Assembly: GCF_030013595.1 (NCBI RefSeq) | Contig: NZ_CP122768.1 | Source of the DNA: Escherichia coli | GTDB lineage: Bacteria; Pseudomonadota; Gammaproteobacteria; Enterobacterales; Enterobacteriaceae | Reading direction: 5' to 3' (one strand) | DNA length: 64,000 bases | Shown here: in pieces, positions 8,877 to 39,792 of the stretch | Layout: every line of letters starts with the position of its first letter | Position numbering within the stretch: position 1 is the first letter of the stretch | Translations under genes and position numbers: made by a program | The notes under the pieces: model-generated | The model's input: the letters and a program-made list of their open reading frames with translations, nothing else | Database searches by the model: none | What the model was told of the DNA's origin: nothing

Positions 8877-10485
8877 ATGACTGACATTAACTATGATAAT
8901 ACTGTATATCCATCCAGCTCTTTCTCTGGGTCTCCCTATCTGTATGGGCAAGTCTACACCTCAAGTCCTGACACAAGGCTGACACAAATCAATCTACTCA
9001 GCGTAGCTAAGCCTCAGTTAGTCCGTAGAGCCAATGGTCGATATACTATCCGCTTCAGACTCAAGGGACAGACCACACCGTTTCTTTCAGTATCGACCCG
9101 AAGCACAGACAGGAGAGTAGCCACAATGCGTCAGAGAGAGCTTGCAGCCACAGCTAAGGCCTTCATGTTGGATAGGCCTGAAGTCTCACTACAGGAGCTT
9201 ACAGAGCATCTCCGGTCTATGGCTGAGCAGTTCCTGACAGACGCTAGTGACGATTACTGGAATGGACTTGAGGTCGCTACTTTGGTGGACGAGAAGTCCA
9301 ACCTGAAGGAGCTAGCCGCTACGCAAGCCTTGAGTCTGGACCAGCAGAAGGGCATAAGGTTAGCGCTTGAAGTCCTGACCGCAGCACAGCAGAGGGTAGA
9401 TACTGGTGATACGTCCAGTCTAATCAAGCTGATTGGTGGTGGCGTAAGCCAGCTTACTGATGGAGATGACAATAACCTTACTAATAACTCAACTATATGC
9501 GACTCTACGTTGATTCTGAGGAACGAGCAGGGGGTCAGCCCGCAAGTATTCACGAGAGAGCGCCAACCATCTGTAGTTTTTTCAAGCCTAGTGTCCTCAC
9601 TGCTGGCTGAGAAGGTCCAGACCCTGAAGTCCTCCAGCTACAAGGACCTGTCGTCCTCACTGAATACCGTCTCTCGGTTTCTGCCTGAAGATATGGACCT
9701 GATGTCCCGCTCTGAGTGGCTGGCAGTGAGGGACGCTATGCTGGCTGCTGAGGTGAGACCATCGACAATCAACAAGCTGCTGACCAAAGCGAAGATGTGT
9801 CTCGATTATGGCCTGATGAATGGGCAACTTGAGGGCCGCAACCCTATTGAACGGATGAAGCTGACCAAGGATACCGACTCCAAGCGCAGAGCGTTCACAG
9901 ACGAGGAGCTGGAGAGACTTCTGGTCCGTGTTGAGGCTGAGTATCAGTTCACACGACACACGGCTCACACGACCTCTGAGGCCCGTAGATGGGCGTCTCT
10001 GGTGTCTGTGGTCACTGGCGCGAGGTCTGCTGAGGTCTGCCACCTGACTAAACGTGACGTTGTAACCTTGGACAATGGACTGGTCTGTATCGACATCAAT
10101 GAAGATGGGGACGGGAAGTCTGTGAAGAACAAACATTCAGTCCGACTTGTGCCGTTAACCGATGGGGCCTGTGGTTTCAGCCTGAAGTCCTTCCTCAAAT
10201 GGGTAGACACTCAGCCTGCTGATGGTCCCCTCTTTGGTATGACTCCGAGTGCCTACTCTAGTTGGTTTAACTCTAGGGTCCTGACTGAGGCCCTAGGAGA
10301 CGCTGAGAACGTTTCTCCACAGTCTGAGACATTGGCTGGCGACCCGAATGAAAGAGCGTGGAGTCAATCTGGTGGACGCTCAAGGCATCTTAGGTCACAG
10401 CAGTCAGTCCATTACGTATGACCTGTACGGGAAAGGACACGCTGTTGGTAGGCTGGCTGAGGTGCTGAAGACAGCTTTACTTTAA
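8877..10485 (+). pseudogene. Tyrosine recombinase (integrase) interrupted by a frameshift; ~535 aa if repaired
   Basis: Frame 1 (8877..10421) carries VTGARSAEV (box I Arg) and KNKHSVRLVPL. The catalytic LHSLRHWLATRMKERGVNLVDAQGILGHSSQSITYDLYGKGH is in the +1 frame and ends at 10485. The shift must lie in 10297..10317, probably the TTT run at 10312-10314. Confidence 0.8.
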
Positions 10486-10581
10486 GTAGGAAGACCCAAG
10501 GTGGAGACCATATACGGCTTGATGGTTGAGACCTTGGGTCACTGAAGTCTGACTGAAGTTAGGGAGGGTGATAATAATCAT

Positions 10582-10604
10582 AATCCCTCCTGACTATAGG
10601 CCCA
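10582..10604 (+). promoter_or_regulatory. Phage single-subunit RNAP promoter look-alike AATCCCTCCTGACTATAGGCCCA
   Basis: A GACTATAGG core resembling the T7 CACTATAGG, directly after the hairpin GGAGGGTGAT..ATCATAATCCCTCC downstream of int. Confidence 0.35.
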
Positions 10605-10645
10605 CTGGTTCGCCTTCGGCTGTCCGACTCTAAGTCTGTCTGTGG

Positions 10646-10777
10646 TCTTATTTAAACTGGTTCCCTAACTCAGGTCCTCCAACTTGGTGTCTTATTTAAA
10701 CTGGTTCCCTAACTCAGGTCCTCCAACTTGGTGTCTTATTTAAACTGGTTCCCTAACTCAGGCCCCTCCAAATTTCG
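10646..10777. repeat. Three tandem 44-bp repeats (TCTTATTTAAACTGGTTCCCTAACTCAGGTCCTCCAACTTGGTG; third copy diverges at its 3' end)
   Basis: Units start at 10646, 10690 and 10734. The first two are identical by eye. Confidence 0.9.
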
Positions 10778-10832: not shown

Positions 10833-10855
10833 CCTTAACTATCACCTTAGGAGAG
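10833..10855 (+). promoter_or_regulatory. Phage-RNAP-type promoter look-alike CCTTAACTATCACCTTAGGAGAG (type 2, copy 1)
   Basis: Shares CCCTwAACTATCACywTAGGrGrGA with 11452..11474. Predicted +1 at 10850, 52 nt upstream of the ATG at 10902. Confidence 0.5.
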
Positions 10856-10901
10856 ACGGGCCGTCCTCCACCCAATCAAAACCTTAAGAGGAGGACCATA
10901 C

Positions 10902-11402
10902 ATGGCTATTAAAATTCAGTGCTACACCGAGTCCGACAATGCGGCTTTCTTCGGTGACGATTCCGACCTCCAGCACCAGCTACCAGCACCGACATATGAC
11001 GAACCTAAGGCCCGCACAGGTAAGCCTCCTGTGGTCATCGACAACCGGGCTGTCCGTGCGTGGCTGATTGAGACTGGGTGTCTCTCCTATACGCAGCTTG
11101 TTGAGGCGTACCCGTGGGCTGACGATGTGTTCACAGGACTCTCACGGGCTACCAGTGGCGCTGTCGGTGCTGGACTCCCGGTATCTAAGGCGTACCTGTT
11201 CTCTGCCTTATATGGCACCAACGACATCTTCTCCCGTAACACAGCCAAATCCTACGCTGACATCACTGGGCGTTCACCGTCTCCTCGCTACCTGCGCCAC
11301 GTCAATAGCGTGCTTCAGGCTACGGCTGTGAATCTGGCTAAGGTTCTGAAGGACCGAGGGGATTTCACATGGTGGGATTACAACGATCAGTGCCTGTCCT
11401 GA
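10902..11402 (+). CDS. Hypothetical 166-aa protein, first gene downstream of the tandem promoter-like pair
   Basis: ATG preceded by AAGAGGAGGA. No domain I can recognise. Confidence 0.6.
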   Translation: MAIKIQCYTESDNAAFFGDDSDLQHQLPAPTYDEPKARTGKPPVVIDNRAVRAWLIETGCLSYTQLVEAYPWADDVFTGLSRATSGAVGAGLPVSKAYLFSALYGTNDIFSRNTAKSYADITGRSPSPRYLRHVNSVLQATAVNLAKVLKDRGDFTWWDYNDQCLS

Positions 11403-11425: not shown

Positions 11426-11448
11426 AATACCCCCTCACTATAGGGACA
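11426..11448 (+). promoter_or_regulatory. Phage-RNAP-type promoter look-alike AATACCCCCTCACTATAGGGACA (type 1, copy 2)
   Basis: By hand alignment, 18 of 23 positions equal the T3 consensus AATTAACCCTCACTAAAGGGAGA and 16 of 23 equal the T7 consensus TAATACGACTCACTATAGGGAGA. Confidence 0.6.
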
Positions 11449-11451
11449 CCC

Positions 11452-11474
11452 CCTAAACTATCACTATAGGGGGG
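11452..11474 (+). promoter_or_regulatory. Phage-RNAP-type promoter look-alike CCTAAACTATCACTATAGGGGGG (type 2, copy 2)
   Basis: CACTATAGGG core. Its +1 lies 26 bp downstream of that of the previous site, forming a tandem pair like 10796/10833. Confidence 0.55.
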
Positions 11475-11712
11475 ACCAACCTTGCCTCTGCTTCTGATGC
11501 GTCAGAACACGCGAGGTCCTCCCGACATTAAGTATTCTCCTAAGTAATCAAGGCCCGTGACCGCCTCTGACAGACCTCCTGTATCGACCTCCAGCTCGTT
11601 AGCGTTCTTTAGTCGTCTCGGTTAGTAGGTAACCGGCTCATTTAAACCGTCTGGTCTGTTTCCTCCGGCTCTACAAAAATAATGTCCATCATTTTTTAAT
11701 GGACACTATCGT

Positions 11713-12360
11713 ATGAAACACCGGACCTGGATCACTGAAGCTTTACGTCTTCACTTTGAAGAACATTTACCCCGGGTTGTGGCCGGGCGTCGCCTGGGTG
11801 TACCAAAATCAACAGTTTGTAGTATGTTCGTGCGCTTTCGGAGAGCTGGCCTTTCGTGGCCTTTGCCCGCAGGCATGTCGGAGCAGGAACTTGATGCCTG
11901 CCTTTACGGACAATTTTCCACGGTACCAGTCGTACGTCCTGAAAGCACCGTTATATCCGAAGCCCCCGTGGTAAAAAAACGTCCCCGGCGGCCCAACTTC
12001 CCTTATGAGTTTAAAATCGCCTTAGTGGAGCAGTCACTGCAGCCCGGAGCCTGTGTGGCGCAGATCGCCCGGGAAAACGGAATCAACGATAACCTGCTCT
12101 TCAACTGGCGCCATCAATACCGGAAAGGTGGCCTGCTGCCTTCCGGAAAAAATATGCCGGCACTGCTTCCCGTGACGTTAACGCCGGAGCCGGATAATAA
12201 AATCCCGGCCCCCGCACAGGAACCAGAGCAGATAAATACACCGTCCGACAGTCTGTGTTGTGAGCTGGTTCTGCCGGCCGGAACTCTCAGGCTTAAAGGT
12301 AAACTGACGCCGGCGTTATTACAGACACTTATCCGCGAAATAAAAGGGAGCAGCCACTGA
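11713..12360 (+). CDS. tnpA: IS66-family accessory protein TnpA (HTH)
   Basis: 215-aa ORF, first of three. Its stop overlaps the tnpB start (ATGA at 12357-12362). Confidence 0.8.
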   Translation: MKHRTWITEALRLHFEEHLPRVVAGRRLGVPKSTVCSMFVRFRRAGLSWPLPAGMSEQELDACLYGQFSTVPVVRPESTVISEAPVVKKRPRRPNFPYEFKIALVEQSLQPGACVAQIARENGINDNLLFNWRHQYRKGGLLPSGKNMPALLPVTLTPEPDNKIPAPAQEPEQINTPSDSLCCELVLPAGTLRLKGKLTPALLQTLIREIKGSSH

Positions 12361-12707
12361 TGATATCTCTCCCTGCAGGTTCGCGTATCTGGCTGGTTGC
12401 AGGTATCACCGATATGCGAAATGGCTTTAACGGCCTGGCATCAAAAGTTCAGAACGTCCTGAAGGATGACCCGTTCTCCGGACACCTGTTCATCTTCCGC
12501 GGACGCCGGGGTGACCAGATAAAAGTGTTGTGGGCTGACAGTGACGGACTGTGCCTCTTCACCAAACGCCTGGAGCGGGGCCGCTTCGTCTGGCCAGTCA
12601 CCCGTGACGGCAAGGTGCACCTTACTCCGGCTCAGTTATCCATGCTTCTTGAAGGTATCAACTGGAAGCACCCGAAACGAACGGAACGCGCTGGAATCCG
12701 CATATAA
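12360..12707 (+). CDS. tnpB: IS66-family TnpB (Orf2)
   Basis: 115 aa, MISLPAGSRIWLVAGITDMRNGFNGLA..., typical IS66 Orf2. Confidence 0.88.
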   Translation: MISLPAGSRIWLVAGITDMRNGFNGLASKVQNVLKDDPFSGHLFIFRGRRGDQIKVLWADSDGLCLFTKRLERGRFVWPVTRDGKVHLTPAQLSMLLEGINWKHPKRTERAGIRI

Positions 12708-12726
12708 CCCGTTGTAAAGTGAGGAT

Positions 12727-14298
12727 ATGGACACCTCACTTGCTCATGAGAACGCCCGCCTGCGGGCACTGTTGCAGACGCAACAGGACACCATCCGCCA
12801 GATGGCTGAATACAACCGCCTGCTCTCACAGCGGGTGGCGGCTTATGCTTCCGAAATCAACCGGCTGAAGGCGCTGGTTGCGAAACTGCAACGTATGCAG
12901 TTCGGTAAAAGCTCAGAAAAACTTCGTGCAAAAACCGAACGGCAGATACAGGAAGCACAGGAGCGAATCAGCGCACTTCAGGAAGAAATGGCGGAAACGC
13001 TGGGTGAGCAATATGACCCGGTACTGCCATCCGCCCTGCGCCAGTCTTCAGCCCGTAAACCGTTACCGGCCTCACTTCCCCGTGAAACCCGGGTTATCCG
13101 GCCGGAAGAGGAATGCTGTCCTGCCTGTGGTGGTGAACTCAGTTCTCTGGGATGTGATGTGTCAGAGCAACTGGAGCTTATCAGCAGCGCCTTTAAGGTT
13201 ATCGAAACACAACGTCCGAAACAGGCCTGTTGCCGGTGCGACCATATCGTACAGGCACCAGTACCTTCAAAACCCATTGCACGCAGTTATGCCGGAGCGG
13301 GGCTTCTGGCCCATGTTGTCACCGGGAAATATGCAGACCATCTGCCGTTATACCGCCAGTCAGAAATATACCGTCGTCAGGGAGTGGAGCTGAGCCGTGC
13401 CACACTGGGGCGCTGGACAGGTGCTGTTGCTGAACTGCTGGAGCCGCTGTATGACGTCCTGCGCCAGTATGTGCTGATGCCCGGTAAAGTCCATGCTGAT
13501 GATATCCCCGTCCCGGTCCAGGAGCCGGGCAGCGGTAAAACCCGGACAGCCCGGCTGTGGGTCTACGTCCGTGATGACCGTAACGCCGGTTCACAGATGC
13601 CCCCGGCGGTCTGGTTCGCGTACAGTCCGGACCGGAAAGGTATCCATCCACAAAATCACCTGGCCGGTTACAGCGGTGTGCTTCAGGCCGATGCTTACGG
13701 TGGTTACCGGGCGTTATACGAATCCGGCAGAATAACGGAAGCCGCGTGTATGGCTCATGCCCGGAGAAAAATCCACGATGTGCATGCAAGAGCGCCCACC
13801 TACATCACCACGGAAGCCCTGCAGCGTATCGGTGAACTGTATGCCATCGAGGCAGAGGTCCGGGGCTGTTCAGCAGAACAGCGTCTGGCGGCAAGAAAAG
13901 CCAGAGCCGCGCCACTGATGCAGTCACTGTATGACTGGATACAGCAACAGATGAAAACACTGTCGCGTCACTCAGATACGGCAAAAGCGTTCGCATACCT
14001 GCTGAAACAGTGGGATGCACTGAACGTGTACTGCAGTAATGGCTGGGTGGAAATCGACAACAACATCGCAGAGAACGCCTTACGGGGAGTGGCCGTAGGC
14101 CGGAAAAACTGGATGTTCGCGGGTTCCGACAGCGGTGGTGAACATGCGGCGGTGTTGTACTCGCTGATCGGCACATGCCGTCTGAACAATGTGGAGCCAG
14201 AAAAGTGGCTGCGTTACGTCATTGAACATATCCAGGACTGGCCGGCAAACCGGGTACGCGATCTGTTGCCCTGGAAAGTTGATCTGAGCTCTCAGTAA
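12727..14298 (+). CDS. tnpC: IS66-family DDE transposase TnpC
   Basis: 523 aa with N-terminal leucine-zipper-like region, CxxC zinc motif ([12 protein letters not shown]) and DDE core, typical of IS66 transposases. Confidence 0.9.
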
Positions 14299-14582
14299 AT
14301 ATCAATACGGTTCTGACGAGTCGCTTACGTTAGTAGCTCGTCTACTCACTACATTGGCTTAAGTCTATCACCGCTCACCATCTGGAGTCCTTACAGCTCG
14401 TCCTGACATGCGGTCTCACCTTATATGCACATGGAGAACATGGCCACTCCAGACCAACACTAATCAACATTAACCCTATTCACTTTCGTTAAGCATTTTT
14501 TGGTGGGTCCGTTTGGATGCATTGAATAGGTGCGGACTCCACGTGGAGACAGAAAGTGCTTTACTAAAGGAGCATCCTTTAT

Positions 14583-14972
14583 ATGACTATTAAATCCATC
14601 GTTATCAACGGTAAGACCATCCTGTCTACACCTAACGCCATCAATGAGGGTGTCTGGTTCGACATGCTTGAGGTCCATCAAGCTGCTGGCTTGCCTGCTA
14701 ACAAGACGTTCTCACAGTGGCGCAGCCGACAGTCTCGTGCATTAGAAGAGGCTGGAGAGGTGTCGTTTGACAGTGTACAGAAGACCCTGTGTGGCAGCTT
14801 TGTGGCAGTGCTGGCCTACCTTATGTGGGCGGACCTTACTCTCTGGCTGGCGGTGGTTCGTTACGTTGCGTCTGAGACTATCGGCGTCCTGCCTGACCGC
14901 TTCAAGTCTATCGACGGTGATAACCCCGAGTTAGAAATGTCAGAGGATAACAGCGAGTGGGAGGACTTCTAA
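14583..14972 (+). CDS. KilA-N-like domain protein (129 aa) with acidic C-terminal tail ending ...SEDNSEWEDF
   Basis: SD TAAAGGAG. The N-terminus is paralogous to the next ORF (both have GLPA[NS]K..S[QE]W). See finding on the tail. Confidence 0.6.
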   Translation: MTIKSIVINGKTILSTPNAINEGVWFDMLEVHQAAGLPANKTFSQWRSRQSRALEEAGEVSFDSVQKTLCGSFVAVLAYLMWADLTLWLAVVRYVASETIGVLPDRFKSIDGDNPELEMSEDNSEWEDF

Positions 14973-14973
14973 G

Positions 14974-15714
14974 ATGACCATGAGCCAGCTTGAAGCATTA
15001 CCTATCGTCATCGAGGGTCATTCATTCATCTGCAACGACCAGCGCATGTGGAACCTGAACGAGATTCACCGAGTGTTAGGTCTTCCAGCAAGCAAGATGC
15101 CGTCTGAGTGGAATAACAAGATTCGCACACAACTTGACCGCTCCGGAAATTTCCGGACCGTGAATGGTGACGGCGGTGGTACATGGGCGACCGAGGCTGG
15201 GACCGTGGCTTATGCTATGTGGGTCTCTACAGATTTCTACCTGATGGTCATCAATGCTTTCATCTTTATGCGTAACGACGCAATCGTCCGAGAGCGTGTA
15301 GCGGTCAAACAGGCTGACGAGGCTAACGCTAACCTCTCCATCGCAGCACCTAAGGCAGACATCTTTGACGGTCGTCTGACCAATGGTGGCTCTGTTCCGT
15401 GGAACTGGGCGTGTAAATCTTTGGGTCTTGCCCCGATGAAACTGAAAGAGGGCTTGAAGCGCTCCGGTAAGTTCGTCCAGAAGTGGAACCCTGACAGTTA
15501 CGCCGACGAGCTTCGACCTCAGGAGAAGGCGTTCAGTATTGGACTATTCGTCACTAAGTCAGTCATGGGTAAAGACACATGGCAGGTGACAGCTAAAGGC
15601 TACGCATGGATGCAGGGGAACGCCCAGAAGTGGAGAGAGCTAATAGCTGATGGTGACCGCTTAAAGGCTGCTGAGCGTCGAGCACAGAAGCGTCTTAACC
15701 GTGGAGGTAAGTAG
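14974..15714 (+). CDS. KilA-N N-terminal / ANT-like C-terminal (antirepressor-type) DNA-binding protein, 246 aa
   Basis: N-terminal pattern IEGHSF..MWNLNEIHRVLGLPASK..GGGTWATEAGTVAYAMWVS fits KilA-N. The C-terminal LGLAPMKLKEGLKRSGKF...QVTAKGYAWM fits the ANT C-terminal pattern as I remember it. Starts 1 nt after the previous stop. Confidence 0.6.
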   Translation: MTMSQLEALPIVIEGHSFICNDQRMWNLNEIHRVLGLPASKMPSEWNNKIRTQLDRSGNFRTVNGDGGGTWATEAGTVAYAMWVSTDFYLMVINAFIFMRNDAIVRERVAVKQADEANANLSIAAPKADIFDGRLTNGGSVPWNWACKSLGLAPMKLKEGLKRSGKFVQKWNPDSYADELRPQEKAFSIGLFVTKSVMGKDTWQVTAKGYAWMQGNAQKWRELIADGDRLKAAERRAQKRLNRGGK

Positions 15715-15716
15715 TC

Positions 15717-15941
15717 ATGGCTATGATTGACCCTCGTACACCTATCGGCAAAGCGACCCTTCGTTACCGTGGTCTGCCTACACGTCATCTGCTGTCCCTG
15801 CTGAGACTTGGAGTCGAAGACCCCGAACGCCCGTACTACAGTCGAGACGAGCTAATAGCTATGTTGGTGGACCGTGATTTAGACAATCAGTTACGCCGAG
15901 CCTTTGCGAAGTCTAGCGCAGCTAGGGAACTGGAGTCCTGA
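15717..15941 (+). CDS. Hypothetical 74-aa protein
   Basis: ATG 2 nt after the previous stop, SD GGAGGTAAG. No recognisable domain. Confidence 0.5.
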   Translation: MAMIDPRTPIGKATLRYRGLPTRHLLSLLRLGVEDPERPYYSRDELIAMLVDRDLDNQLRRAFAKSSAARELES

Positions 15942-16146
15942 ACCTTATGGGGCAGAAAAACCGCCGCATAAACCTATCGTCTGCTGACCGAAGTTTCGAC
16001 GCATTGAGCCAGACGGAAAAGTTTTCCTGCTGGTAAACCACCTTAATTTAAACACCTTTTGAGAATGACCGATGCGGGGAGACCCGTAGGCATAACTGTG
16101 TCTGCGATACCGATAGTTCTCACCTTCTCAATAGGAGTACTACCTT

Positions 16147-16638
16147 ATGTTATTCAACAACAACGACTGGAAACTATCAGTCACCGACATCAATCCCTAT
16201 GAAAATACTGTGAGTCTGGACGGTCAGTCCTATCCGCTGTCTCTGGCGATTAAGACCCTGATTCCGGGCTACCTGTCAGGCTTACCGTCCACCAGCCGCG
16301 AGGCGATGGAGTTACTGGAAGCTCTGGCTGAAGCTGGCGTGTCCATTGGCAACTTCTTCAGTAATGACCTGATGACCGCCTATGGTCGCCGCCAGCAGAA
16401 CAAGCGAGCCGAAGCTGAGCGTATTGCTAAAGAGCAGCGCATTCAGGCTGAGCGTATGCGTGAAGAGAACATGACTGATGCAGAGTGGCAGAAAGAGCTA
16501 CAGCGCCGTGAACAGGTCAAAGCTGAACGCCGGACCTATGGTGAGCACCTCCGCAGTGCTACCCATTCCGCTGGGCGCTCCCGTGCTTCTATGGTCGCTG
16601 ACATTGAGTCCACGGACAACTGGATGGACAGCCTCTAA
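16147..16638 (+). CDS. Scaffold-like coiled-coil protein (163 aa)
   Basis: SD AGGAG. The charged heptad-like stretch RRQQNKRAEAERIAKEQRIQAERMREENMTDAEWQKELQRREQVKAERR sits immediately upstream of the capsid-like gene. Function is inferred from position and composition only. Confidence 0.4.
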   Translation: MLFNNNDWKLSVTDINPYENTVSLDGQSYPLSLAIKTLIPGYLSGLPSTSREAMELLEALAEAGVSIGNFFSNDLMTAYGRRQQNKRAEAERIAKEQRIQAERMREENMTDAEWQKELQRREQVKAERRTYGEHLRSATHSAGRSRASMVADIESTDNWMDSL

Positions 16639-16713
16639 GACACAGACACACAAGTGGTCCTGACCTGATGTCGGGACCCACAGTATCCAAACTAATTTAG
16701 GAGATTGATTATT

Positions 16714-17700
16714 ATGACGATTAAAGACGCTTTCCAGTTCGGCATTGAGCCAGTACGTATCAGCGACACCGACAACATTCAGATTAACGAAGGTTTGCCA
16801 ACTAACGCAGACCCGCAGGTCTATGCCCTCCAGTTAGCTAAGACGGTTAAGGCTATGCTGAACGGTGTACTTAAAGACGCTCAAGAGAACATCCCGTTCC
16901 CTGTAGAAGTCCTGCCGACCCGCAATAGCCTGCCTACTCCAATCATTGCTCACACTCTGGCTGATCGCTCTGTGGTCGTTCCTGTCCGTGGTGGTAAGCG
17001 ACCTGAAGTCGTGACCGTTCCGTCTGGACAAGAAATCGTGGTCGAACCAATCGAGCAGGCTATTCTCATCTCTGAGCAGACCAAGCTCTGGGACGCCAAG
17101 TCATCCACCGGATTCACTCAGGGCACACTTCAGCAGGACGCTATGAACATCTGTGAGAATGTGGTCCGTACCATCAACGCTCGCATGGTCGACGTTCTGG
17201 AGTCCTCCAAACTGTTGAAGACCGTAGAGCTGCCAGTCCTGACTGGAAGCCTGACCACTAAGGCAGACGCTATCATGGACGCTCTGTTTGAGAACACCGA
17301 GTCCTCTTTCGGCTCTGAAGTGTCTGATTACGGCATCATCGCCCATGAGTCCCAACTGAAAGCGCTGTCCCGTCTGGCAGCTAAACAGGGCTTCTCTGGT
17401 GGAGACGCTATCGTGGATATGCTGGGTACCGACATCGCCTATTACAACGGTGAAGACAAGGGTGTATTCATGCTGGCTAAACGCTTCACGGCCCTGAGCT
17501 TCGGCTGCTTCCGTCACGACGGTGAGAATATTACGGTCGTCCTTTCACGTGATGGCGACTCTCAGTCCCACGACTTGGAAATCCTCGGTAAAGTGTTCGT
17601 TGTCGCTGAAGCTGCTACGACCATCAAGATGGGCACTGGCTCAGCTACTGCCGTCCTGCCTGTAGTCAAACGCCTGAAGTTCACCAAGACCGAAGCGTAA
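16714..17700 (+). CDS. Putative HK97-fold major capsid protein (328 aa)
   Basis: ATG at 16714 after TAGGAG. Size and the C-terminal pattern (GIIAHESQLKAL...MLGTDIAYYNGEDKGVFMLAKRFTALSF...ITVVLSRDGDSQSHDLEILGKVFVVAEAA) resemble HK97-type coat proteins. No obvious similarity to T7 gp10 by eye. Confidence 0.45.
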   Translation: MTIKDAFQFGIEPVRISDTDNIQINEGLPTNADPQVYALQLAKTVKAMLNGVLKDAQENIPFPVEVLPTRNSLPTPIIAHTLADRSVVVPVRGGKRPEVVTVPSGQEIVVEPIEQAILISEQTKLWDAKSSTGFTQGTLQQDAMNICENVVRTINARMVDVLESSKLLKTVELPVLTGSLTTKADAIMDALFENTESSFGSEVSDYGIIAHESQLKALSRLAAKQGFSGGDAIVDMLGTDIAYYNGEDKGVFMLAKRFTALSFGCFRHDGENITVVLSRDGDSQSHDLEILGKVFVVAEAATTIKMGTGSATAVLPVVKRLKFTKTEA

Positions 17701-17844: not shown

Positions 17845-18000
17845 ATGTCTATGACTTCCGCAGACCTAAGGTCCCTCCTGACTCTGGTCTATAAACTCGT
17901 GTTCCTCTCTGTGGGTCTCTACATGGTTCTCTCTGGTCGACTCGGTGTGGATGTGTTCGACACTCTGTCTAAGGCTGTGGGTGGACTTCTAGGTCCTTAG
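17845..18000 (+). CDS. 51-aa hydrophobic peptide (one or two TM segments)
   Basis: Not in the ORF track (<60 aa). ATG at 17845 preceded by GAAGGAGGA. MSMTSADLRSLLTLVYKLVFLSVGLYMVLSGRLGVDVFDTLSKAVGGLLGP. Confidence 0.45.
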   Translation: MSMTSADLRSLLTLVYKLVFLSVGLYMVLSGRLGVDVFDTLSKAVGGLLGP

Positions 18001-18241
18001 GTTTGGACTCACAGTGGGACCGATGATTTCTGACAGAAAAATGTGAATGACCATCTAATACATTAAGCCAGCAGACTTCCCCCCATAGTCCCGCCTCAAG
18101 TCCAGACCGAGGCCACCGGGGGTCCTGACCAGCCGTCTAGACATCCCGTCTAATGACACAAGTCTGGCACAAAGCCTGACACAAAGTCCTTGACTCAATG
18201 CAGGACCTCAGGCCTACTAAGGGTCCGCTTCAAGTCCTTGA

Positions 18242-25011: not shown

Positions 25012-25831
25012 ATTAATTTTTCATTGCTTCGTTATGGGGCATGGTTGGGGCAAACTCGCTTAACTGTGTATTTAACAAAGCTACCTGTGCATTATTGTTT
25101 TCAGACATCCATTTTCCGTATACCTGAAATACCATTTGCGCATCTGCATGGCCCATCTGGTTTGCTATAAATGCCGGGTTAGCACCAGCTGTCAGCGACC
25201 AGCAGGCATAAGTATGTCTCGACTGATATGATTTTCGATGGCGGAGTCCGGCACGTTTTATCGCTGCGTCCCACATCTGCCTTATTGAGTCAACGGTAAA
25301 ATGGTCACCATAATTTTTTACTCTCGCTGACACTTCAGGTTGAAAAACAAAGGTGCATTTATGTTTTTCTGTTCTGCCATACTCTCTGAGGTGAACATCA
25401 ATGATATGCTCTTTGCTCAGTCTCGTTAATGTCATCTGACTCCGGAGAGCGTCGATTGCTGGCTTAATAAGATGAATGACCCGATTGGTTCCCGCCTGTG
25501 TTTTTGGTACCGTGAAACGGTCTTTTGCTAAATTTCTCCTGATCATCATTGTTCCATTTTTCAGATCTATGTCCTCCCATCCAAGTGCACACAGCTCACC
25601 AGGGCGAACGCCAGTATAAACAGAAACACACCATAAATTTTTGGCTTGCTGATTTCTGCACGCATCGATAAGACGGATGAATTCCTCCCGCGAAAGAGGA
25701 TCCGGAATGGTTCTTGATTCCTTTAATGGCGAGATCCCCTTAAACGGGTTATCTGCCAGGTAACCGTTATCAACACCAAACTGGAACACGGCGTTAAGAT
25801 TGTAAGCGACTCGTCAGAACCGTATTGATAT

Positions 25832-27403
25832 TTACTGAGAGCTCAGATCAACTTTCCAGGGCAACAGATCGCGTACCCGGTTTGCCGGCCAGTCCTGGAT
25901 ATGTTCAATGACGTAACGCAGCCACTTTTCTGGCTCCACATTGTTCAGACGGCATGTGCCGATCAGCGAGTACAACACCGCCGCATGTTCACCACCGCTG
26001 TCGGAACCCGCGAACATCCAGTTTTTCCGGCCTACGGCCACTCCCCGTAAGGCGTTCTCTGCGATGTTGTTGTCGATTTCCACCCAGCCATTACTGCAGT
26101 ACACGTTCAGTGCATCCCACTGTTTCAGCAGGTATGCGAACGCTTTTGCCGTATCTGAGTGACGCGACAGTGTTTTCATCTGTTGCTGTATCCAGTCATA
26201 CAGTGACTGCATCAGTGGCGCGGCTCTGGCTTTTCTTGCCGCCAGACGCTGTTCTGCTGAACAGCCCCGGACCTCTGCCTCGATGGCATACAGTTCACCG
26301 ATACGCTGCAGGGCTTCCGTGGTGATGTAGGTGGGCGCTCTTGCATGCACATCGTGGATTTTTCTCCGGGCATGAGCCATACACGCGGCTTCCGTTATTC
26401 TGCCGGATTCGTATAACGCCCGGTAACCACCGTAAGCATCGGCCTGAAGCACACCGCTGTAACCGGCCAGGTGATTTTGTGGATGGATACCTTTCCGGTC
26501 CGGACTGTACGCGAACCAGACCGCCGGGGGCATCTGTGAACCGGCGTTACGGTCATCACGGACGTAGACCCACAGCCGGGCTGTCCGGGTTTTACCGCTG
26601 CCCGGCTCCTGGACCGGGACGGGGATATCATCAGCATGGACTTTACCGGGCATCAGCACATACTGGCGCAGGACGTCATACAGCGGCTCCAGCAGTTCAG
26701 CAACAGCACCTGTCCAGCGCCCCAGTGTGGCACGGCTCAGCTCCACTCCCTGACGACGGTATATTTCTGACTGGCGGTATAACGGCAGATGGTCTGCATA
26801 TTTCCCGGTGACAACATGGGCCAGAAGCCCCGCTCCGGCATAACTGCGTGCAATGGGTTTTGAAGGTACTGGTGCCTGTACGATATGGTCGCACCGGCAA
26901 CAGGCCTGTTTCGGACGTTGTGTTTCGATAACCTTAAAGGCGCTGCTGATAAGCTCCAGTTGCTCTGACACATCACATCCCAGAGAACTGAGTTCACCAC
27001 CACAGGCAGGACAGCATTCCTCTTCCGGCCGGATAACCCGGGTTTCACGGGGAAGTGAGGCCGGTAACGGTTTACGGGCTGAAGACTGGCGCAGGGCGGA
27101 TGGCAGTACCGGGTCATATTGCTCACCCAGCGTTTCCGCCATTTCTTCCTGAAGTGCGCTGATTCGCTCCTGTGCTTCCTGTATCTGCCGTTCGGTTTTT
27201 GCACGAAGTTTTTCTGAGCTTTTACCGAACTGCATACGTTGCAGTTTCGCAACCAGCGCCTTCAGCCGGTTGATTTCGGAAGCATAAGCCGCCACCCGCT
27301 GTGAGAGCAGGCGGTTGTATTCAGCCATCTGGCGGATGGTGTCCTGTTGCGTCTGCAACAGTGCCCGCAGGCGGGCGTTCTCATGAGCAAGTGAGGTGTC
27401 CAT
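25832..27403 (-). CDS. tnpC: IS66-family DDE transposase TnpC (copy 2)
   Basis: 523 aa, identical to 12727..14298. Confidence 0.9.
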
Positions 27404-27422
27404 ATCCTCACTTTACAACGGG

Positions 27423-27770
27423 TTATATGCGGATTCCAGCGCGTTCCGTTCGTTTCGGGTGCTTCCAGTTGATACCTTCAAGAAGCATGGATAACTGAGC
27501 CGGAGTAAGGTGCACCTTGCCGTCACGGGTGACTGGCCAGACGAAGCGGCCCCGCTCCAGGCGTTTGGTGAAGAGGCACAGTCCGTCACTGTCAGCCCAC
27601 AACACTTTTATCTGGTCACCCCGGCGTCCGCGGAAGATGAACAGGTGTCCGGAGAACGGGTCATCCTTCAGGACGTTCTGAACTTTTGATGCCAGGCCGT
27701 TAAAGCCATTTCGCATATCGGTGATACCTGCAACCAGCCAGATACGCGAACCTGCAGGGAGAGATATCAT
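27423..27770 (-). CDS. tnpB: IS66-family TnpB (copy 2)
   Basis: 115 aa, identical to 12360..12707. Confidence 0.88.
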   Translation of the reverse strand: MISLPAGSRIWLVAGITDMRNGFNGLASKVQNVLKDDPFSGHLFIFRGRRGDQIKVLWADSDGLCLFTKRLERGRFVWPVTRDGKVHLTPAQLSMLLEGINWKHPKRTERAGIRI

Positions 27771-28417
27771 CAGTGGCTGCTCCCTTTTATTTCGCGGATA
27801 AGTGTCTGTAATAACGCCGGCGTCAGTTTACCTTTAAGCCTGAGAGTTCCGGCCGGCAGAACCAGCTCACAACACAGACTGTCGGACGGTGTATTTATCT
27901 GCTCTGGTTCCTGTGCGGGGGCCGGGATTTTATTATCCGGCTCCGGCGTTAACGTCACGGGAAGCAGTGCCGGCATATTTTTTCCGGAAGGCAGCAGGCC
28001 ACCTTTCCGGTATTGATGGCGCCAGTTGAAGAGCAGGTTATCGTTGATTCCGTTTTCCCGGGCGATCTGCGCCACACAGGCTCCGGGCTGCAGTGACTGC
28101 TCCACTAAGGCGATTTTAAACTCATAAGGGAAGTTGGGCCGCCGGGGACGTTTTTTTACCACGGGGGCTTCGGATATAACGGTGCTTTCAGGACGTACGA
28201 CTGGTACCGTGGAAAATTGTCCGTAAAGGCAGGCATCAAGTTCCTGCTCCGACATGCCTGCGGGCAAAGGCCACGAAAGGCCAGCTCTCCGAAAGCGCAC
28301 GAACATACTACAAACTGTTGATTTTGGTACACCCAGGCGACGCCCGGCCACAACCCGGGGTAAATGTTCTTCAAAGTGAAGACGTAAAGCTTCAGTGATC
28401 CAGGTCCGGTGTTTCAT
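27770..28417 (-). CDS. tnpA: IS66-family TnpA (copy 2)
   Basis: 215 aa, identical to 11713..12360. Confidence 0.8.
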   Translation of the reverse strand: MKHRTWITEALRLHFEEHLPRVVAGRRLGVPKSTVCSMFVRFRRAGLSWPLPAGMSEQELDACLYGQFSTVPVVRPESTVISEAPVVKKRPRRPNFPYEFKIALVEQSLQPGACVAQIARENGINDNLLFNWRHQYRKGGLLPSGKNMPALLPVTLTPEPDNKIPAPAQEPEQINTPSDSLCCELVLPAGTLRLKGKLTPALLQTLIREIKGSSH

Positions 28418-29035
28418 ACGATAGTGTCCATTAAAAAATGATGGACATTATTTTTGTAGAGCCGGAGGAAACAGACCAGACGGTTTAAATGAGCCGGTTA
28501 CTTAAGATTTGTCATGTAATTATTTACAGTTACAGCCGATCTACCTGGTTGTGTAACAATATAGTTACTTTTGGGGCTCTGGTATCCAGTCAGTAGCTCT
28601 TTACGAACCTCCAGTAATTTTTCTTTATTAATCGATGAGGCAAGATTTTTTTCACCGATTATGCTCAGGATATTTTTGATGACGGCACGGTATGTGTTGA
28701 GTGATGTTTTTGCGACTTCAGTTTCTTTCAGTGCCAGAAATTTTTCAGCCAGTTCTTTTATGGTTAAATCTTGTCGGGTCTCACCAAATTTTTCCAGATT
28801 GCGTGAGGAGGGAAACTGTTTTGCATAGTCGAAAACACCAGTTTTTATTGCGTAACAAACAGAGGCGCGTAGCTCACCTGCAACGCGCCTGTTTTTTGCT
28901 GTGTCAGGAACCCCCAGGTTTTCCCTGACTCTTACGCCTTTATAAACAAACCAGATACGTAATTTCCCTCCATGGTTTTCCACGCCTGTCGGATATTTCA
29001 TTTCAACTTCTCTCATTAGTTAGTGTGGCTTTTAG

Positions 29036-38451: not shown

Positions 38452-39792
38452 ATGATCAAAGAGACTGTTACGATGAGTCATAAGGAACTCCACCGACTTC
38501 AGATTATTCAGGAGTCAATTAATCGACATATTACTCAGGAACAAGCTGCGGCACGCATTGGCATTTCTATTCGGCAGGTTAAACGTCTGGTGCAACGGTA
38601 TAGAAATGAAGGGCCTTCTGGTCTGGTTTCCCACCGACGTGGAAAGCGTCCTAATAATTCCTTTTCTACTGAATTCAGAGCAACAGTAATTTCACTCCTC
38701 AAAGGCCGTTACGCTGATTTTGGACCTACGTTTGCGTGCGAAAAATTGCGCGAGATACACGGTTTATCTTTATCCGTTGAAACTCTCAGAAAGTGGATGA
38801 TAGAAGAGGGGTTATGGCGTGAACGCCGTCGTAAAATTGCCCGTATATATCAACGCCGCATGCGACGACCATCTTACGGTGAACTGATCCAGATTGATGG
38901 CTCACCTCATGACTGGTTTGAAAATCGAGGCCCCAGATGTACACTGATCGTTTTCATTGATGATGCCACCAGTGCGTTGATGGCGTTGCGTTTTGTGCCT
39001 GCTGAAACAACCCGGGCTTACATGGAAACCCTCCGGGGTTACCTTAATGATCATGGCGTACCGCTCGCTCTCTACTCTGATAGACACAGTATATTCAGGG
39101 TAAATAACCCAGAGCGGGAAGGTGAGCTGACCCAGTTCACTCGTGCGATAAAGACACTGGGCATCGAGCCAATCCATGCCAACAGCCCGCAGGCAAAAGG
39201 GCGGGTAGAGCGCGCCAATCAGACACTACAGGACAGGCTGGTCAAAGAAATGCGGCTTCAGAATATCAGTGATATTGAAACAGCAAATGCATGGTTGCCG
39301 ACCTTTATTGAAGCCTATAACAACCGGTTCGCTACGTCGCCTCGTACTACTGATAATGCTCATCTTGATGAGCACCATTCTGAAGAGGAACTGGGTTATA
39401 TCTTCAGCCTACAGGCGAAGCGCGTTCTGTCTAAAAATCTCACTTTCCAGTACAAAAGCAGTGCGTTTCAGGTACGCAGTGAGGGCCGGGGATATCGACT
39501 TAGGCATTCGGTTGTTACTGTATGCGAGAACTTTGACGGTGAAATTAACGTTCTGTATGACGGGAAAGCGCTGGGCTGGGAAAAGTATGTTGATGGCCCG
39601 GAGCCTATACCACTGGATGATGAAAAGAGTGTCCATGAACGAGTGGATAATGCCCGTATTGATTTACGCTCAAAATACTATGTTAAACCTAAAGCTGACC
39701 ATCCCTGGCTTACGCGCCGAACGCAAAGTCATCAGCAAGTTAAGCCCCCGAAGTTACCTAAAAAGAAGCCTGATCCCGATAAAAAAGATTGA
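38452..39792 (+). CDS. rve (DDE integrase-core) transposase with N-terminal HTH, ISNCY/IS1202-group-like
   Basis: HTH ITQEQAAARIGISIRQVKRLVQRYRNEG, then a core with LIQIDGSPHDWF...LYSDRHSIF...AKGRVERANQTLQDRL. The IS ends are not confidently defined. Confidence 0.75.
   Translation: MIKETVTMSHKELHRLQIIQESINRHITQEQAAARIGISIRQVKRLVQRYRNEGPSGLVSHRRGKRPNNSFSTEFRATVISLLKGRYADFGPTFACEKLREIHGLSLSVETLRKWMIEEGLWRERRRKIARIYQRRMRRPSYGELIQIDGSPHDWFENRGPRCTLIVFIDDATSALMALRFVPAETTRAYMETLRGYLNDHGVPLALYSDRHSIFRVNNPEREGELTQFTRAIKTLGIEPIHANSPQAKGRVERANQTLQDRLVKEMRLQNISDIETANAWLPTFIEAYNNRFATSPRTTDNAHLDEHHSEEELGYIFSLQAKRVLSKNLTFQYKSSAFQVRSEGRGYRLRHSVVTVCENFDGEINVLYDGKALGWEKYVDGPEPIPLDDEKSVHERVDNARIDLRSKYYVKPKADHPWLTRRTQSHQQVKPPKLPKKKPDPDKKD

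What the first reader, a model, noticed from the sequence alone, without database searches (positions are those of the whole stretch)
14583..14972. KilA-N-like protein ending in an acidic tail with C-terminal Phe, reminiscent of the T7 gp2.5 / gp4 polymerase-docking tails
Seen: the 129-aa product ends ...IDGDNPELEMSEDNSEWEDF. This is a run of acidic residues with an aromatic Trp a few residues before a terminal Asp-Phe. Established (from memory): T7 SSB gp2.5 and helicase-primase gp4 both end in acidic tails with a C-terminal Phe (gp4 ends roughly ...TDWSNDTDF). These tails dock onto basic patches of T7 DNA polymerase/thioredoxin, and the terminal Phe is essential. Inference: the island protein could mimic these tails, either to recruit the helper replisome to island DNA (via its KilA-N DNA-binding domain) or to compete with and interfere with helper replication.
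Basis: inference. Interest (0 to 1): 0.5.

Follow-up and report, generated by a model that had tools for sequence, protein, structure and literature searches.

The report
Satellite protein copying helper helicase tail
A small DNA-binding-type protein, encoded on an E. coli island that appears wired to respond to T7-family (K1F-like) phages, ends in a floppy acidic tail closely resembling the tail that the phage helicase uses to hold its DNA polymerase, so it may hijack or jam the phage's replication machinery; this is untested.

Summary
ORF 14583..14972 (+) encodes 129 aa ending ...DGDNPELEMSEDNSEWEDF. Residues 1-100 form a KilA-N/APSES-type fold and residues 104-129 are predicted disordered.

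The interpretation gains unexpected contextual support. The ~6.5 kb island, inserted in ynfE, carries perfect 25-nt copies of the phage-RNA-polymerase promoters of Kayfunavirus (K1F-like, T7 family). It also has a segment resembling the K1F terminal repeat. Its helper or trigger is therefore very probably a K1F-like phage.

Kayfunavirus gp4 tails (...EEDSGSWENNDF, ...SSSWEDPDPDF) resemble the island tail more closely than T7's does. Their DNA polymerases keep the basic patches that bind such tails in T7.

Caveats:
- Binding is untested.
- The gene is accessory, present in about 40 of about 314 island-bearing E. coli genomes.
- The family is tiny, and the only remote short homologue lacks the tail.
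- Codons W-E-D double as the Shine-Dalgarno sequence (GGGAGGA) of the downstream gene.
- This copy of the island is degraded by an integrase frameshift and an IS66 insertion.

Best reading (p~0.45): a gp4-tail mimic that docks on helper gp5/thioredoxin.

The parts
14583..14972 (+). ORF of the 129-aa protein (stop included).
   Evidence: Purifying selection on the domain (pN/pS 0.04-0.11). Present in 40 of 5426 complete E. coli genomes.
14567..14572 (+). Shine-Dalgarno AAGGAG of the 129-aa gene, 10 nt before the ATG.
   Evidence: In islands that lack this gene, the same leader and SD serve the KilA-N/ANT gene directly.
14583..14873 (+). KilA-N/APSES-like folded domain (aa 1-97). Net charge about 0.
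14874..14969 (+). Acidic, predicted-disordered C-terminal tail (aa 98-129) ending SEWEDF-COOH.
   Evidence: 11 D/E versus 2 K/R; pLDDT below 50 from aa 104; similar to Kayfunavirus gp4 tails.
14959..14965 (+). GGGAGGA inside codons W126-E127-D128: the Shine-Dalgarno of the downstream KilA-N/ANT gene (ATG at 14974, 8-nt spacer, stop TAA-g-ATG).
   Evidence: This DNA is retained upstream of the KilA-N/ANT gene even where the 129-aa gene has been replaced (L002).
14974..15714 (+). Paralogous KilA-N + KilAC/ANT protein (246 aa), translationally coupled. A core island gene.
   Evidence: Pfam PF04383 and PF03374. Closest phage relative is P1 KilA, 27.5% identity.
11426..11448 (+). T7-family phage-RNAP promoter-like site AATACCCCCTCACTATAGGGACA (+1 at 11443).
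11452..11474 (+). Kayfunavirus-type phage-RNAP promoter CCTAAACTATCACTATAGGGGGG (+1 at 11469). It is the operon promoter in IS-free islands, about 390 nt upstream of the 129-aa gene.
   Evidence: Island consensus is a 25-nt perfect match to K1F/EcoDS1/CR44b promoters. K1F has 9 copies.
10833..10855 (+). Third promoter-like site CTTAACTATCACCTTAGGAGAGA, upstream of the 166-aa variable ORF (10902..11402).
   Evidence: K1F has the same TCACCTTAGG variant at 10864.
11629..14328 (.). IS66-family insertion (2700 bp, 8-bp target duplication GTTAGTAG) separating the promoters from the operon in this copy.
18078..18114 (+). Element resembling the K1F direct terminal repeat (positions 23-61); candidate packaging signal at the island's right end.
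   Evidence: Local alignment score 36-44 against 18+/-2 for shuffles (max 28), in five island variants including Rouxiella.
10563..10590 (+). Inverted-repeat element GGAGGGTGATAATAATCATAATCCCTCC, resembling K1F 38976-39003 (between the rightmost K1F promoter copy, 38848, and the right terminal repeat).
   Evidence: score 39 against 20+/-2 for shuffles, max 28.
8877..10485 (+). Island integrase, frameshifted here by a 2-nt deletion at about 10313, just before the HSLRH motif.
15717..17700 (+). Remaining core island genes: 74 aa, 163 aa (coiled-coil rich) and 331 aa. Function unknown.

Best explanation
The 129-aa protein is an accessory gene of a small integrative island in ynfE. The island is built to be switched on by T7-family phages of the genus Kayfunavirus (K1F-like).

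In intact islands the gene is the first cistron behind a phage-RNA-polymerase promoter identical to the K1F gene-10-type promoter. It would therefore be made in quantity only after infection.

Its N-terminal 100 residues form a KilA-N/APSES DNA-binding-type fold. Its last ~26 residues are a disordered acidic tail ending Ser-Glu-Trp-Glu-Asp-Phe-COOH. This imitates the C-terminal tail of the helper's primase-helicase gp4 (...SGSWENNDF, ...SSSWEDPDPDF) and, more loosely, that of its SSB gp2.5 (...GGDYDF).

I infer that the tail docks on the same sites those tails use on the helper DNA polymerase-thioredoxin complex: the front basic patch and the basic loops of the thioredoxin-binding domain.

My preferred version is that the folded domain sits on island DNA and the tail holds helper polymerase there. 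That would favour replication of an island that has no replication genes of its own. The nearly equal alternative is that the protein is a soluble decoy. It would compete with gp4 and gp2.5 for the polymerase and so damp helper replication.

Shown here: the sequence, the fold, the disorder, the promoter identity, the tail similarity and the conservation of the receptor patches. Inferred: expression from the phage promoter, binding, and the biological outcome.
For: Tail and ORF. Fold and disorder.

Helper identity:
- 25-nt perfect matches to promoters of K1F, EcoDS1 and CR44b, which occur 7-9 times per ~39-40 kb phage genome.
- Nine copies in K1F, including CTAAACTATCACTATAGGGAGA just upstream of gene 10.
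- 1-3 copies per island, all on the gene strand and intergenic, conserved even in the diverged Rouxiella island.
- No excess of sigma-70-like promoters in the operon.
- Terminal-repeat-like and right-end-like elements.

Tail similarity: K1F/HC12 gp4 ...SSGEEDSGSWENNDF, EcoDS1 gp4 ...STDSSSWEDPDPDF, island ...EMSEDNSEWEDF.

Specificity: in Kayfunavirus genomes only gp4 passes the acidic-tail-plus-terminal-Phe test, and in the window only this ORF does. Of 48 annotated K1F proteins only gp2.5, gp4 and the non-acidic gp4.3 end in Phe.

Receptor conserved: HC12 and ST66 gp5 keep KWKRRW and the FKKPKNK/HPRTGK loops.

Role of such tails in T7, from the literature: they recruit and load gp5/trx via the front basic patch K587/K589/R590/R591. 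They mediate polymerase exchange via the thioredoxin-binding-domain patch. The gp2.5 tail competes with gp4 (PMC12339929; bioRxiv 10.64898/2026.05.20.726333).

Independent natural example of the same ending: a 415-aa DnaB-like helicase of marine phages ends ...ELPDYEWEDF. It sits beside a primase, a protein ending ...DDDDELF and a family-A DNA polymerase.

Within the clade, substitutions in the tail conserve charge. In the most diverged homologue the Phe codon changed synonymously, TTC to TTT.

The same tail also occurs on a different KilA-N N-domain (P0010).
Against: - No binding or structural test was possible.
- The gene is absent from most islands of the family: about 40 of about 314 E. 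coli genomes have it. An HNH gene or an unrelated 165-aa ORF replaces it elsewhere. The island's basic cycle therefore does not need it.
- A search of 1.84 billion representatives finds essentially one cluster. The only remote short homologue (P0053, 34% identity) ends ...NREVEA with no such tail.
- The acidic run is not length-conserved: P0003 has ...DGADAWEDF.
- TGG-GAG-GAC (W-E-D) is the GGGAGGA ribosome-binding site of the next gene. GGAGGAC is the island's habitual strong SD. The last 45 nt persist as upstream DNA where the gene has been replaced. Conservation of WED therefore need not reflect protein function.
- The folded domain has net charge about 0, which is weak for a DNA binder.
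- Trp sits 4 residues from the end, against 6-10 in gp4 tails.
Confidence: 0.45

Rival explanations
1. The tail has no partner of its own. The acidic stretch is a tolerated disordered linker or remnant. The last residues are dictated by the overlapping translation-initiation region of the KilA-N/ANT gene (SD GGGAGGA in W-E-D, TAA-g-ATG coupling). The protein's function lies only in its KilA-N-like domain, for example as a short paralogue that modulates or competes with the full-length KilA-N/ANT regulator.
For: - The SD lies inside the W-E-D codons with an optimal 8-nt spacer.
- The same 45 nt are kept as non-coding upstream DNA in L002-type islands.
- GGAGGAC is the SD of other island genes, and islands without the gene use the leader SD directly.
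- In L057 the 116-aa paralogue's ending ...AGGASYDF is likewise an SD plus the overlapping ATG of the next gene.
- The tail evolves faster than the domain (pN/pS 0.3-0.5 against 0.04-0.11).
- The remote homologue lacks the tail.
Against: - The SD explains at most W-E-D. It does not explain the terminal Phe (synonymous TTC to TTT change in L009).
- It does not explain the 20-residue acidic run with charge-conserving substitutions.
- It does not explain the specific S-x-W-E-D..F resemblance to the gp4 tail of exactly the phage genus whose promoters the island carries.
- Such endings are rare: 1 of 185 ORFs.
Confidence: 0.2
2. The tail is an intramolecular or paralogue-directed DNA mimic. It folds back on a DNA-binding surface and gates DNA binding. 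That surface could be its own KilA-N-like domain, the KilA-N/ANT paralogue, or the ssDNA cleft of the helper's gp2.5. The gp2.5 tail does this in T7.
For: - The architecture (DNA-binding fold plus disordered acidic tail with aromatic residues) parallels gp2.5 and bacterial SSB.
- The literature describes regulation of gp2.5 DNA binding by its own tail (PMC10359462, listed).
- Paralogous KilA-N proteins are encoded next door and are translationally coupled.
Against: - The protein's own domain is not basic (net charge 0).
- AF2 does not dock the tail on the domain; it stays at low confidence.
- This reading does not explain the specific likeness to gp4 tails.
Confidence: 0.2
3. The tail mimics the C-terminal tip of host SSB (...DDDIPF). 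It would draw host SSB-interacting proteins to the island, or titrate them away from the phage.
For: An acidic tail with a free C-terminal Phe is also the hallmark of bacterial SSB (established knowledge, from memory). The ending is rare in the window.
Against: - The ending E-D-F lacks the Ile-Pro that precedes Phe in SSB tips.
- The island's other signals all point to a T7-family phage, which brings its own replisome.
- Similarity to Kayfunavirus gp4 is much closer.
Confidence: 0.07

Closest known systems
C-terminal tail of T7-family primase-helicase gp4 (T7 ...ESTDWSNDTDF; K1F ...EEDSGSWENNDF; EcoDS1 ...SSSWEDPDPDF)
   Same: Disordered, acidic, with a Trp a few residues before a terminal Asp-Phe-COOH. 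Shares S-x-W-E-[DN]...D-F with Kayfunavirus gp4. The receptor patches are conserved in Kayfunavirus gp5.
   Different: Carried by a 129-aa KilA-N-like protein rather than a hexameric helicase. The Trp-to-Phe spacing is shorter (4 against 6-10). Binding is not shown. It is encoded by a chromosomal island, not by the phage.
C-terminal tail of T7-family SSB gp2.5 (T7 ...EEADEDGDF; K1F ...GGDYDF)
   Same: Acidic tail on a DNA-binding protein with an essential terminal Phe. It binds gp5/trx and competes with gp4 (literature; sequences).
   Different: gp2.5 is an OB-fold ssDNA binder and dimer. The island protein has a KilA-N/APSES-type fold and no sequence relation to gp2.5.
Bacterial SSB C-terminal tip (...DDDIPF)
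   Same: Acidic tail with a terminal Phe, used as a protein-docking peptide.
   Different: The consensus Ile-Pro-Phe is absent. The context points to a phage replisome, not a host one.
PLE satellites of Vibrio cholerae, which depend on the ICP1 replication machinery
   Same: A satellite of a virulent phage that depends on the helper's DNA replication machinery (abstract of 10.1101/2024.04.22.590561; bioRxiv 639039).
   Different: PLEs are about 18 kb and, from memory, encode their own initiator. No tail mimicry and no use of helper RNAP promoters was found in the abstracts seen here (the papers were not read in full).
PICMI minimalist satellites of virulent vibriophages (PMC10803314)
   Same: Integrase-bearing satellites of about 6 kb that hijack virulent phages, lack capsid-remodelling genes and carry variable defence cargo.
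   Different: PICMIs encode three core proteins needed for excision and replication (AlpA is a key regulator) and sit next to fis. No phage-RNAP promoters or terminal-repeat mimic were found in the passages read.
Phage P1 KilA and KilA-N/ANT antirepressor-type proteins
   Same: The neighbouring core gene is 27.5% identical to P1 KilA. The 129-aa protein shares its N-domain fold.
   Different: The 129-aa protein lacks the KilAC/ANT C-domain and has the acidic tail instead.

Membership tests
KilA-N domain (Pfam PF04383) | Match to the Pfam KilA-N model above the gathering score. | tested here: not met
   No Pfam hit at E<=0.1 for the 129-aa protein. The neighbouring gene scores 25.1 bits against a cut-off of 23.8.
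KilA-N domain (Pfam PF04383) | Demonstrable homology to bona fide KilA-N domains. | tested here: met
   BLASTP E=5e-9 to the neighbour's KilA-N domain. A profile of the family retrieves many PF04383-annotated proteins.
KilA-N domain (Pfam PF04383) | Alpha/beta fold shared with the fungal APSES DNA-binding domains. | tested here: met
T7-type polymerase-docking acidic tails (gp4, gp2.5) | C-terminal, flexible, strongly acidic segment. | tested here: met
   aa 98-129: 11 D/E and 2 K/R; pLDDT below 50 from aa 104.
T7-type polymerase-docking acidic tails (gp4, gp2.5) | Aromatic C-terminal residue (Phe) preceded by Asp. | tested here: met
   Ends E-D-F. T7 and Kayfunavirus gp4 and gp2.5 all end D-F.
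T7-type polymerase-docking acidic tails (gp4, gp2.5) | Carried by a replisome protein (helicase-primase or SSB). | tested here: not met
   The carrier has a KilA-N/APSES-type fold with no helicase, primase or OB domain.
T7-type polymerase-docking acidic tails (gp4, gp2.5) | Physical binding to the basic patches of gp5/thioredoxin, dependent on the terminal Phe. | not testable with these tools
   No complex prediction or experiment is available. Only the receptor patches could be checked, and they are conserved in Kayfunavirus gp5.
T7-type polymerase-docking acidic tails (gp4, gp2.5) | Tail conserved among homologues. | tested here: inconclusive
   Kept in all close homologues, with WEDF invariant and the acidic run varying in length. 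The remote homologue P0053 lacks it. WED overlaps an SD.
Bacterial SSB C-terminal tip | Consensus D-D-D-I-P-F with Pro before the terminal Phe. | tested here: not met
   The sequence ends S-E-W-E-D-F.
Phage satellite (helper-dependent integrative island) | Integrase and a specific attachment site. | tested here: met
   Tyrosine integrase. The island splits ynfE in many E. coli genomes. It is listed as a ynfE-inactivating element by TIGER (PMC7192596). The integrase is frameshifted in this window.
Phage satellite (helper-dependent integrative island) | Helper-specific activation. | tested here: inconclusive
   Sequence level only: perfect Kayfunavirus RNAP promoters in front of island genes. 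Transcription was not measured.
Phage satellite (helper-dependent integrative island) | Packaging into helper particles and transfer. | not testable with these tools
   Only a terminal-repeat-like element (z about 8-12 against shuffles) and a right-end-like inverted repeat were found. No capsid, portal or terminase homologue was recognised.

The most novel reading that the evidence does not exclude
The ynfE island family would be the first described natural satellite of T7-family virulent coliphages (Kayfunavirus). On this reading it is transcribed by the helper's own RNA polymerase from copied phage promoters and packaged through a copied terminal-repeat signal. In a subset of islands it is also equipped with a KilA-N-fold protein whose C-terminal peptide imitates the helper helicase tail, to capture the helper DNA polymerase. 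That would be short-linear-motif mimicry of a replisome contact by a satellite.
Probability: 0.3. Interest if true: 0.85.

Novelty: new variant of a known kind. Interest (0 to 1): 0.66.

Why it matters
Acidic tails ending in Phe are the contacts that hold the T7 replisome together. A mobile element that copies such a tail would be a new way for a parasite of a parasite to seize or sabotage a viral replisome. It would be directly testable in the best-understood replication system there is.

The context found here gives the idea a concrete, genetically tractable helper (K1F-like phages). That context is K1F-type phage-polymerase promoters and a terminal-repeat-like element on a 6.5 kb island present in about 6% of complete E. 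coli genomes. It also suggests that T7-family phages, widely used in therapy and biotechnology, have unrecognised satellites or sensors in their hosts.

Tried and rejected
- Pfam, PHROGs, PADLOC and NCBIfam scans of the 129-aa protein and its neighbours: nothing for the 129-aa protein, and only KilA-N/ANT and integrase for the neighbours.
- tblastn of the 129-aa and 331-aa proteins against 50,697 phage records: no significant hit.
- PDB sequence searches: nothing.
- AlphaFold2 of the 331-aa core protein: pLDDT 48, unusable, so my guess that the 163-aa and 331-aa pair is a scaffold and capsid stays untested.
- The full 23-nt T7 consensus promoter with up to 3 mismatches: no hit. The signal appeared only with the conserved core and turned out to be the K1F-type promoter, not the T7 type.
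- A second promoter flavour (..ACCCTCACTATAGGGA) has no perfect match in any phage group, so I make no claim of dual specificity.
- Island-sized contigs as evidence of circular excised forms: L008 equals the island but has no terminal overlap, and another 'small' contig simply ran into flanking genes. This is not evidence.
- Recurrent ...DF/...DY endings among wider KilA-N relatives: partly explained by shared DNA or overlapping start sites and not conserved among orthologues, so treated as suggestive only.
- Literature searches for a T7- or K1F-family satellite, or for this island's function: nothing beyond its listing as a ynfE-targeting integrative element.

Full report
**1. Observation**

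The ORF is exactly as described. It spans 14583..14972 (+), starts at ATG with AAGGAG 10 nt upstream, and encodes 129 aa ending ...SIDGDNPELEMSEDNSEWEDF.

The label 'KilA-N-like' holds, though not through Pfam:
- The protein has no hit in Pfam, PHROGs, PADLOC or NCBIfam.
- Residues 6-92 align with the KilA-N domain of the adjacent 246-aa KilA-N/ANT protein (BLASTP E=5e-9, 28% identity).
- A family profile retrieves many PF04383 proteins.

Residues 104-129 have pLDDT below 50, so they are predicted disordered. Residues 98-129 contain 11 D/E and 2 K/R. The folded domain has net charge about 0.

The ending is rare. With the test 'terminal Phe, at least 5 D/E and no K/R in the last 12 residues', it is the only one of 185 ORFs in the window. 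Only gp4 passes in each of three Kayfunavirus genomes.

**2. The gene is real but narrow and accessory**

Between alleles the domain shows pN/pS of 0.04-0.11, so the gene is under purifying selection. The tail shows about 0.3-0.5 on few substitutions, all charge-conserving (E/D, N to D, L/M to V).

The family is tiny:
- The indexed search of 5.8 billion proteins found 13 hits at E<=0.001, all at least 68% identical except two chimeric fragments that mainly match the neighbouring KilA-N/ANT gene. Sources that name an organism give Escherichia or Citrobacter.
- The exhaustive search of 1.84 billion cluster representatives found the same cluster, plus P0003 and two remote relatives.
- P0003, the most diverged member (pS 0.56), has a shortened tail ...SIDGADAWEDF. 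Its Phe codon changed synonymously.
- The remote 118-aa relative P0053 ends ...NREVEA, with no such tail.

In complete E. coli genomes the gene occurs in 40 of 5426. About 314 genomes carry an island of this family.

At the same position other islands carry an unrelated 165-aa ORF (L002). Others have no gene there at all, with an HNH or DUF4145 gene nearer the integrase (L005, L007). The protein is therefore cargo, not part of the island's core.

**3. What the island is**

The element is about 6.5 kb and splits ynfE. TIGER already listed it as a ynfE-inactivating integrative element (PMC7192596).

Core genes are an integrase, a KilA-N/ANT protein (closest phage relative P1 KilA, 27.5% identity), a 55-74-aa protein, a coiled-coil-rich 160-169-aa protein and a 328-358-aa protein with no recognisable relatives. 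No replication, capsid or terminase gene was recognised.

The decisive clue came from a promoter scan. The T7 promoter core found two tandem sites at 11426-11448 and 11452-11474.

Across eight island variants, including a diverged island at a different site in Rouxiella, there are 1-3 copies of cTAAACTATCACTATAGGGAGAcc. All lie on the gene strand and in intergenic DNA.

This 25-mer matches perfectly sequences present 7-9 times per genome in K1F, EcoDS1, CR44b and other Kayfunavirus phages. In EcoDS1 and CR44b they are annotated as promoters. K1F has nine copies, one identical through +6 just upstream of gene 10. The operon shows no excess of sigma-70-type promoters.

Two further elements resemble the K1F genome ends:
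- The island's right end contains a ~38-nt element aligning to positions 23-61 of the K1F terminal repeat. Scores are 36-44 against 18+/-2 for shuffles, in all five variants tested.
- An inverted repeat downstream of the integrase resembles K1F 38976-39003, near the right genome end.

Plasmids with a T7 origin plus the concatemer junction are known to be replicated and packaged by T7 (Chung & Hinkle 1990, cited in PMC13172314). The island looks like a natural version of that design.

I conclude that the island's helper, or at least its trigger, is a K1F-like T7-family phage. Whether the island is packaged is not shown. I found no description of such a satellite in the library.

**4. Bearing on the tail**

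In IS-free islands the 129-aa gene is the first cistron, about 390 nt behind the main phage promoter.

Kayfunavirus gp4 tails are ...SSGEEDSGSWENNDF (K1F, HC12)...GGEEDSGSWENNDF (ST66) and ...STDSSSWEDPDPDF (EcoDS1). Their gp2.5 tails end ...SGGDYDF. The island tail is ...EMSEDNSEWEDF. The shared pattern, S-x-W-E-[DN]...D-F-COOH after an acidic run, is closer than the match to T7.

Kayfunavirus DNA polymerases are 56-57% identical to T7 gp5. They keep the front basic patch KWKRRW exactly, and the basic loops of the thioredoxin-binding domain.

In T7 those patches bind the gp4 and gp2.5 tails. The binding serves to recruit and load the polymerase and to exchange polymerases, and the two tails compete (PMC12339929; bioRxiv 10.64898/2026.05.20.726333).

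There is an independent natural precedent for the very ending EWEDF-COOH. A scan of viral contigs found it at the end of a 415-aa DnaB-like helicase family of marine phages. That helicase is encoded next to a primase, a protein ending ...DDDDELF and a family-A polymerase.

**5. The main confound**

The codons TGG GAG GAC (W-E-D) contain GGGAGGA, placed 8 nt before the ATG of the KilA-N/ANT gene, with TAA-g-ATG coupling. GGAGGAC is the SD of other island genes.

Islands lacking the 129-aa gene use the leader's AAAGGAG for the KilA-N/ANT gene directly.

In L002-type islands the 129-aa gene has been replaced, yet its last 45 nt persist upstream of the KilA-N/ANT gene. They form an 11-codon mini-ORF, MSEDNSEWEDF.

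The invariance of WED can therefore be explained at the DNA level. The SD does not account for the terminal Phe, the long acidic run, or the resemblance to the tail of the very phage genus whose promoters the island copies.

**6. Mechanism**

Most likely (p about 0.45), the tail is a mimic of the helper gp4 (and gp2.5) tail and docks on gp5/thioredoxin.

I slightly prefer a tethering role:
- Every natural carrier of such a tail is a DNA-bound protein.
- The folded domain is a DNA-binding-type fold under strong constraint.
- The island has no replication genes.

A decoy or interference role is nearly as likely:
- The gene is dispensable cargo.
- The domain is not basic.
- Satellites commonly carry interference genes in variable slots.

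The rivals are a tail with no partner whose end is shaped by the RBS (0.2), an autoinhibitory or DNA-mimic tail acting on KilA-N paralogues or on gp2.5 (0.2), and a host SSB-tip mimic (0.07).

**7. State of this copy**

The integrase is frameshifted by a 2-nt deletion at about 10313, just before the HSLRH motif. A 2.7-kb IS66-family element (11629-14328, target duplication GTTAGTAG) separates the promoters from the operon. This copy is probably immobile and may be poorly induced. The 129-aa ORF itself is intact and differs from the common allele by one residue (L/V).

**8. Verdict**

Its premises (a T7-family helper, a tail resembling the helper's, receptor patches present) are now backed by sequence evidence. 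Binding and its consequence remain inference, and the RBS overlap and the accessory status are real cautions.

Novelty: a new variant of a known kind, namely a T7-type docking tail on a satellite-encoded KilA-N-fold protein. The surrounding island may be the more important discovery.

Noticed in passing
window 10833-10855, 11426-11448, 11452-11474; L001 8402-8424 and 8831-8853; L002 5113-5135; L007 7494-7516 and 8133-8155: The ynfE island family carries same-strand, intergenic copies of the Kayfunavirus (K1F-type) phage-RNA-polymerase promoter cTAAACTATCACTATAGGGAGA. This is a 25-nt perfect match to K1F, EcoDS1 and CR44b. It implies that island genes are transcribed by the RNA polymerase of an infecting T7-family phage.
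   Followed up: yes
window 18078-18114 (also L001, L002, L005 and L007 right ends): An element resembling positions 23-61 of the K1F direct terminal repeat lies at the island's right end (alignment score 36-44 against 18+/-2 for shuffles). It is a candidate packaging or concatemer-junction mimic and suggests the island is a packaged satellite.
   Followed up: partly
window 10563-10590: The inverted repeat GGAGGGTGATAATAATCATAATCCCTCC resembles K1F 38976-39003, which lies between the rightmost K1F promoter copy (38848) and the right terminal repeat.
   Followed up: partly
window 10645-10771; L001 8211-8372: Tandem repeats lie between the integrase and the first phage promoter: 44 bp x 2.9 here and 83 bp x 2 in L001, with different sequences. 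They could be iterons, arm-type sites or binding sites for the KilA-N proteins.
   Followed up: no
window 8877-10485: The island integrase is a pseudogene in this genome. A 2-nt deletion at about 10313 shifts the frame just before the HSLRH motif.
   Followed up: yes
window 11629-14328 and 25802-28501: There are two 100% identical, inverted copies of a 2700-bp IS66-family element. One is inserted in the island leader (target duplication GTTAGTAG). The other lies just beyond rspB. They bracket about 11.5 kb, which could invert.
   Followed up: partly
L002 5505-6047 (five E. coli genomes): The 129-aa gene is replaced by an unrelated 165-aa ORF, but the last 45 nt of the tail-coding DNA remain. 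They form an 11-codon mini-ORF, MSEDNSEWEDF, with a GAGG 5 nt upstream, directly before the KilA-N/ANT gene.
   Followed up: partly
L057 7610-8841, L058 6581-7812: This island variant has three KilA-N paralogues in a row: the 129-aa protein (...SEWEDF), a 116-aa protein ending ...AGGASYDF and a 166-aa protein. The last codons of the 116-aa gene are the SD plus the overlapping ATG of the next gene. P0010 is a chimera of the third paralogue's N-domain with the acidic tail.
   Followed up: partly
L012 6895-11899 and about 20 other IMG/VR contigs: A marine phage family has a 415-aa DnaB-like helicase ending ...ELPDYEWEDF. It is followed by a primase, a 226-aa protein ending ...DDDDELF and a family-A DNA polymerase. 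These are acidic, Phe-ended tails on the helicase and on a neighbouring 226-aa protein of unknown family (possibly the SSB), well outside the coliphages.
   Followed up: partly
window 16147-16638 and 16705-17700: The core island genes of 163 aa (coiled-coil rich) and 331 aa are restricted to Enterobacterales. They have no phage or PDB relatives, and AF2 gives pLDDT 48. A scaffold and capsid-like pair is conceivable but unsupported.
   Followed up: partly
window 17845-18000: A 51-aa hydrophobic ORF with a strong SD (GAAGGAGGAC) lies between a terminator-like hairpin and the terminal-repeat-like element.
   Followed up: no
L007 5168-11581, L008: A related island in Rouxiella sits at a different chromosomal site. 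It has the same core genes, the same K1F-type promoters and the terminal-repeat-like element. Its 190-aa KilA-N protein ends ...IYVYDF.
   Followed up: partly
window about 28500-64000: A prophage-like region follows rspB. In other E. coli genomes this position holds an integrase, an excisionase and a 3'-5' exonuclease gene. I did not examine it.
   Followed up: no
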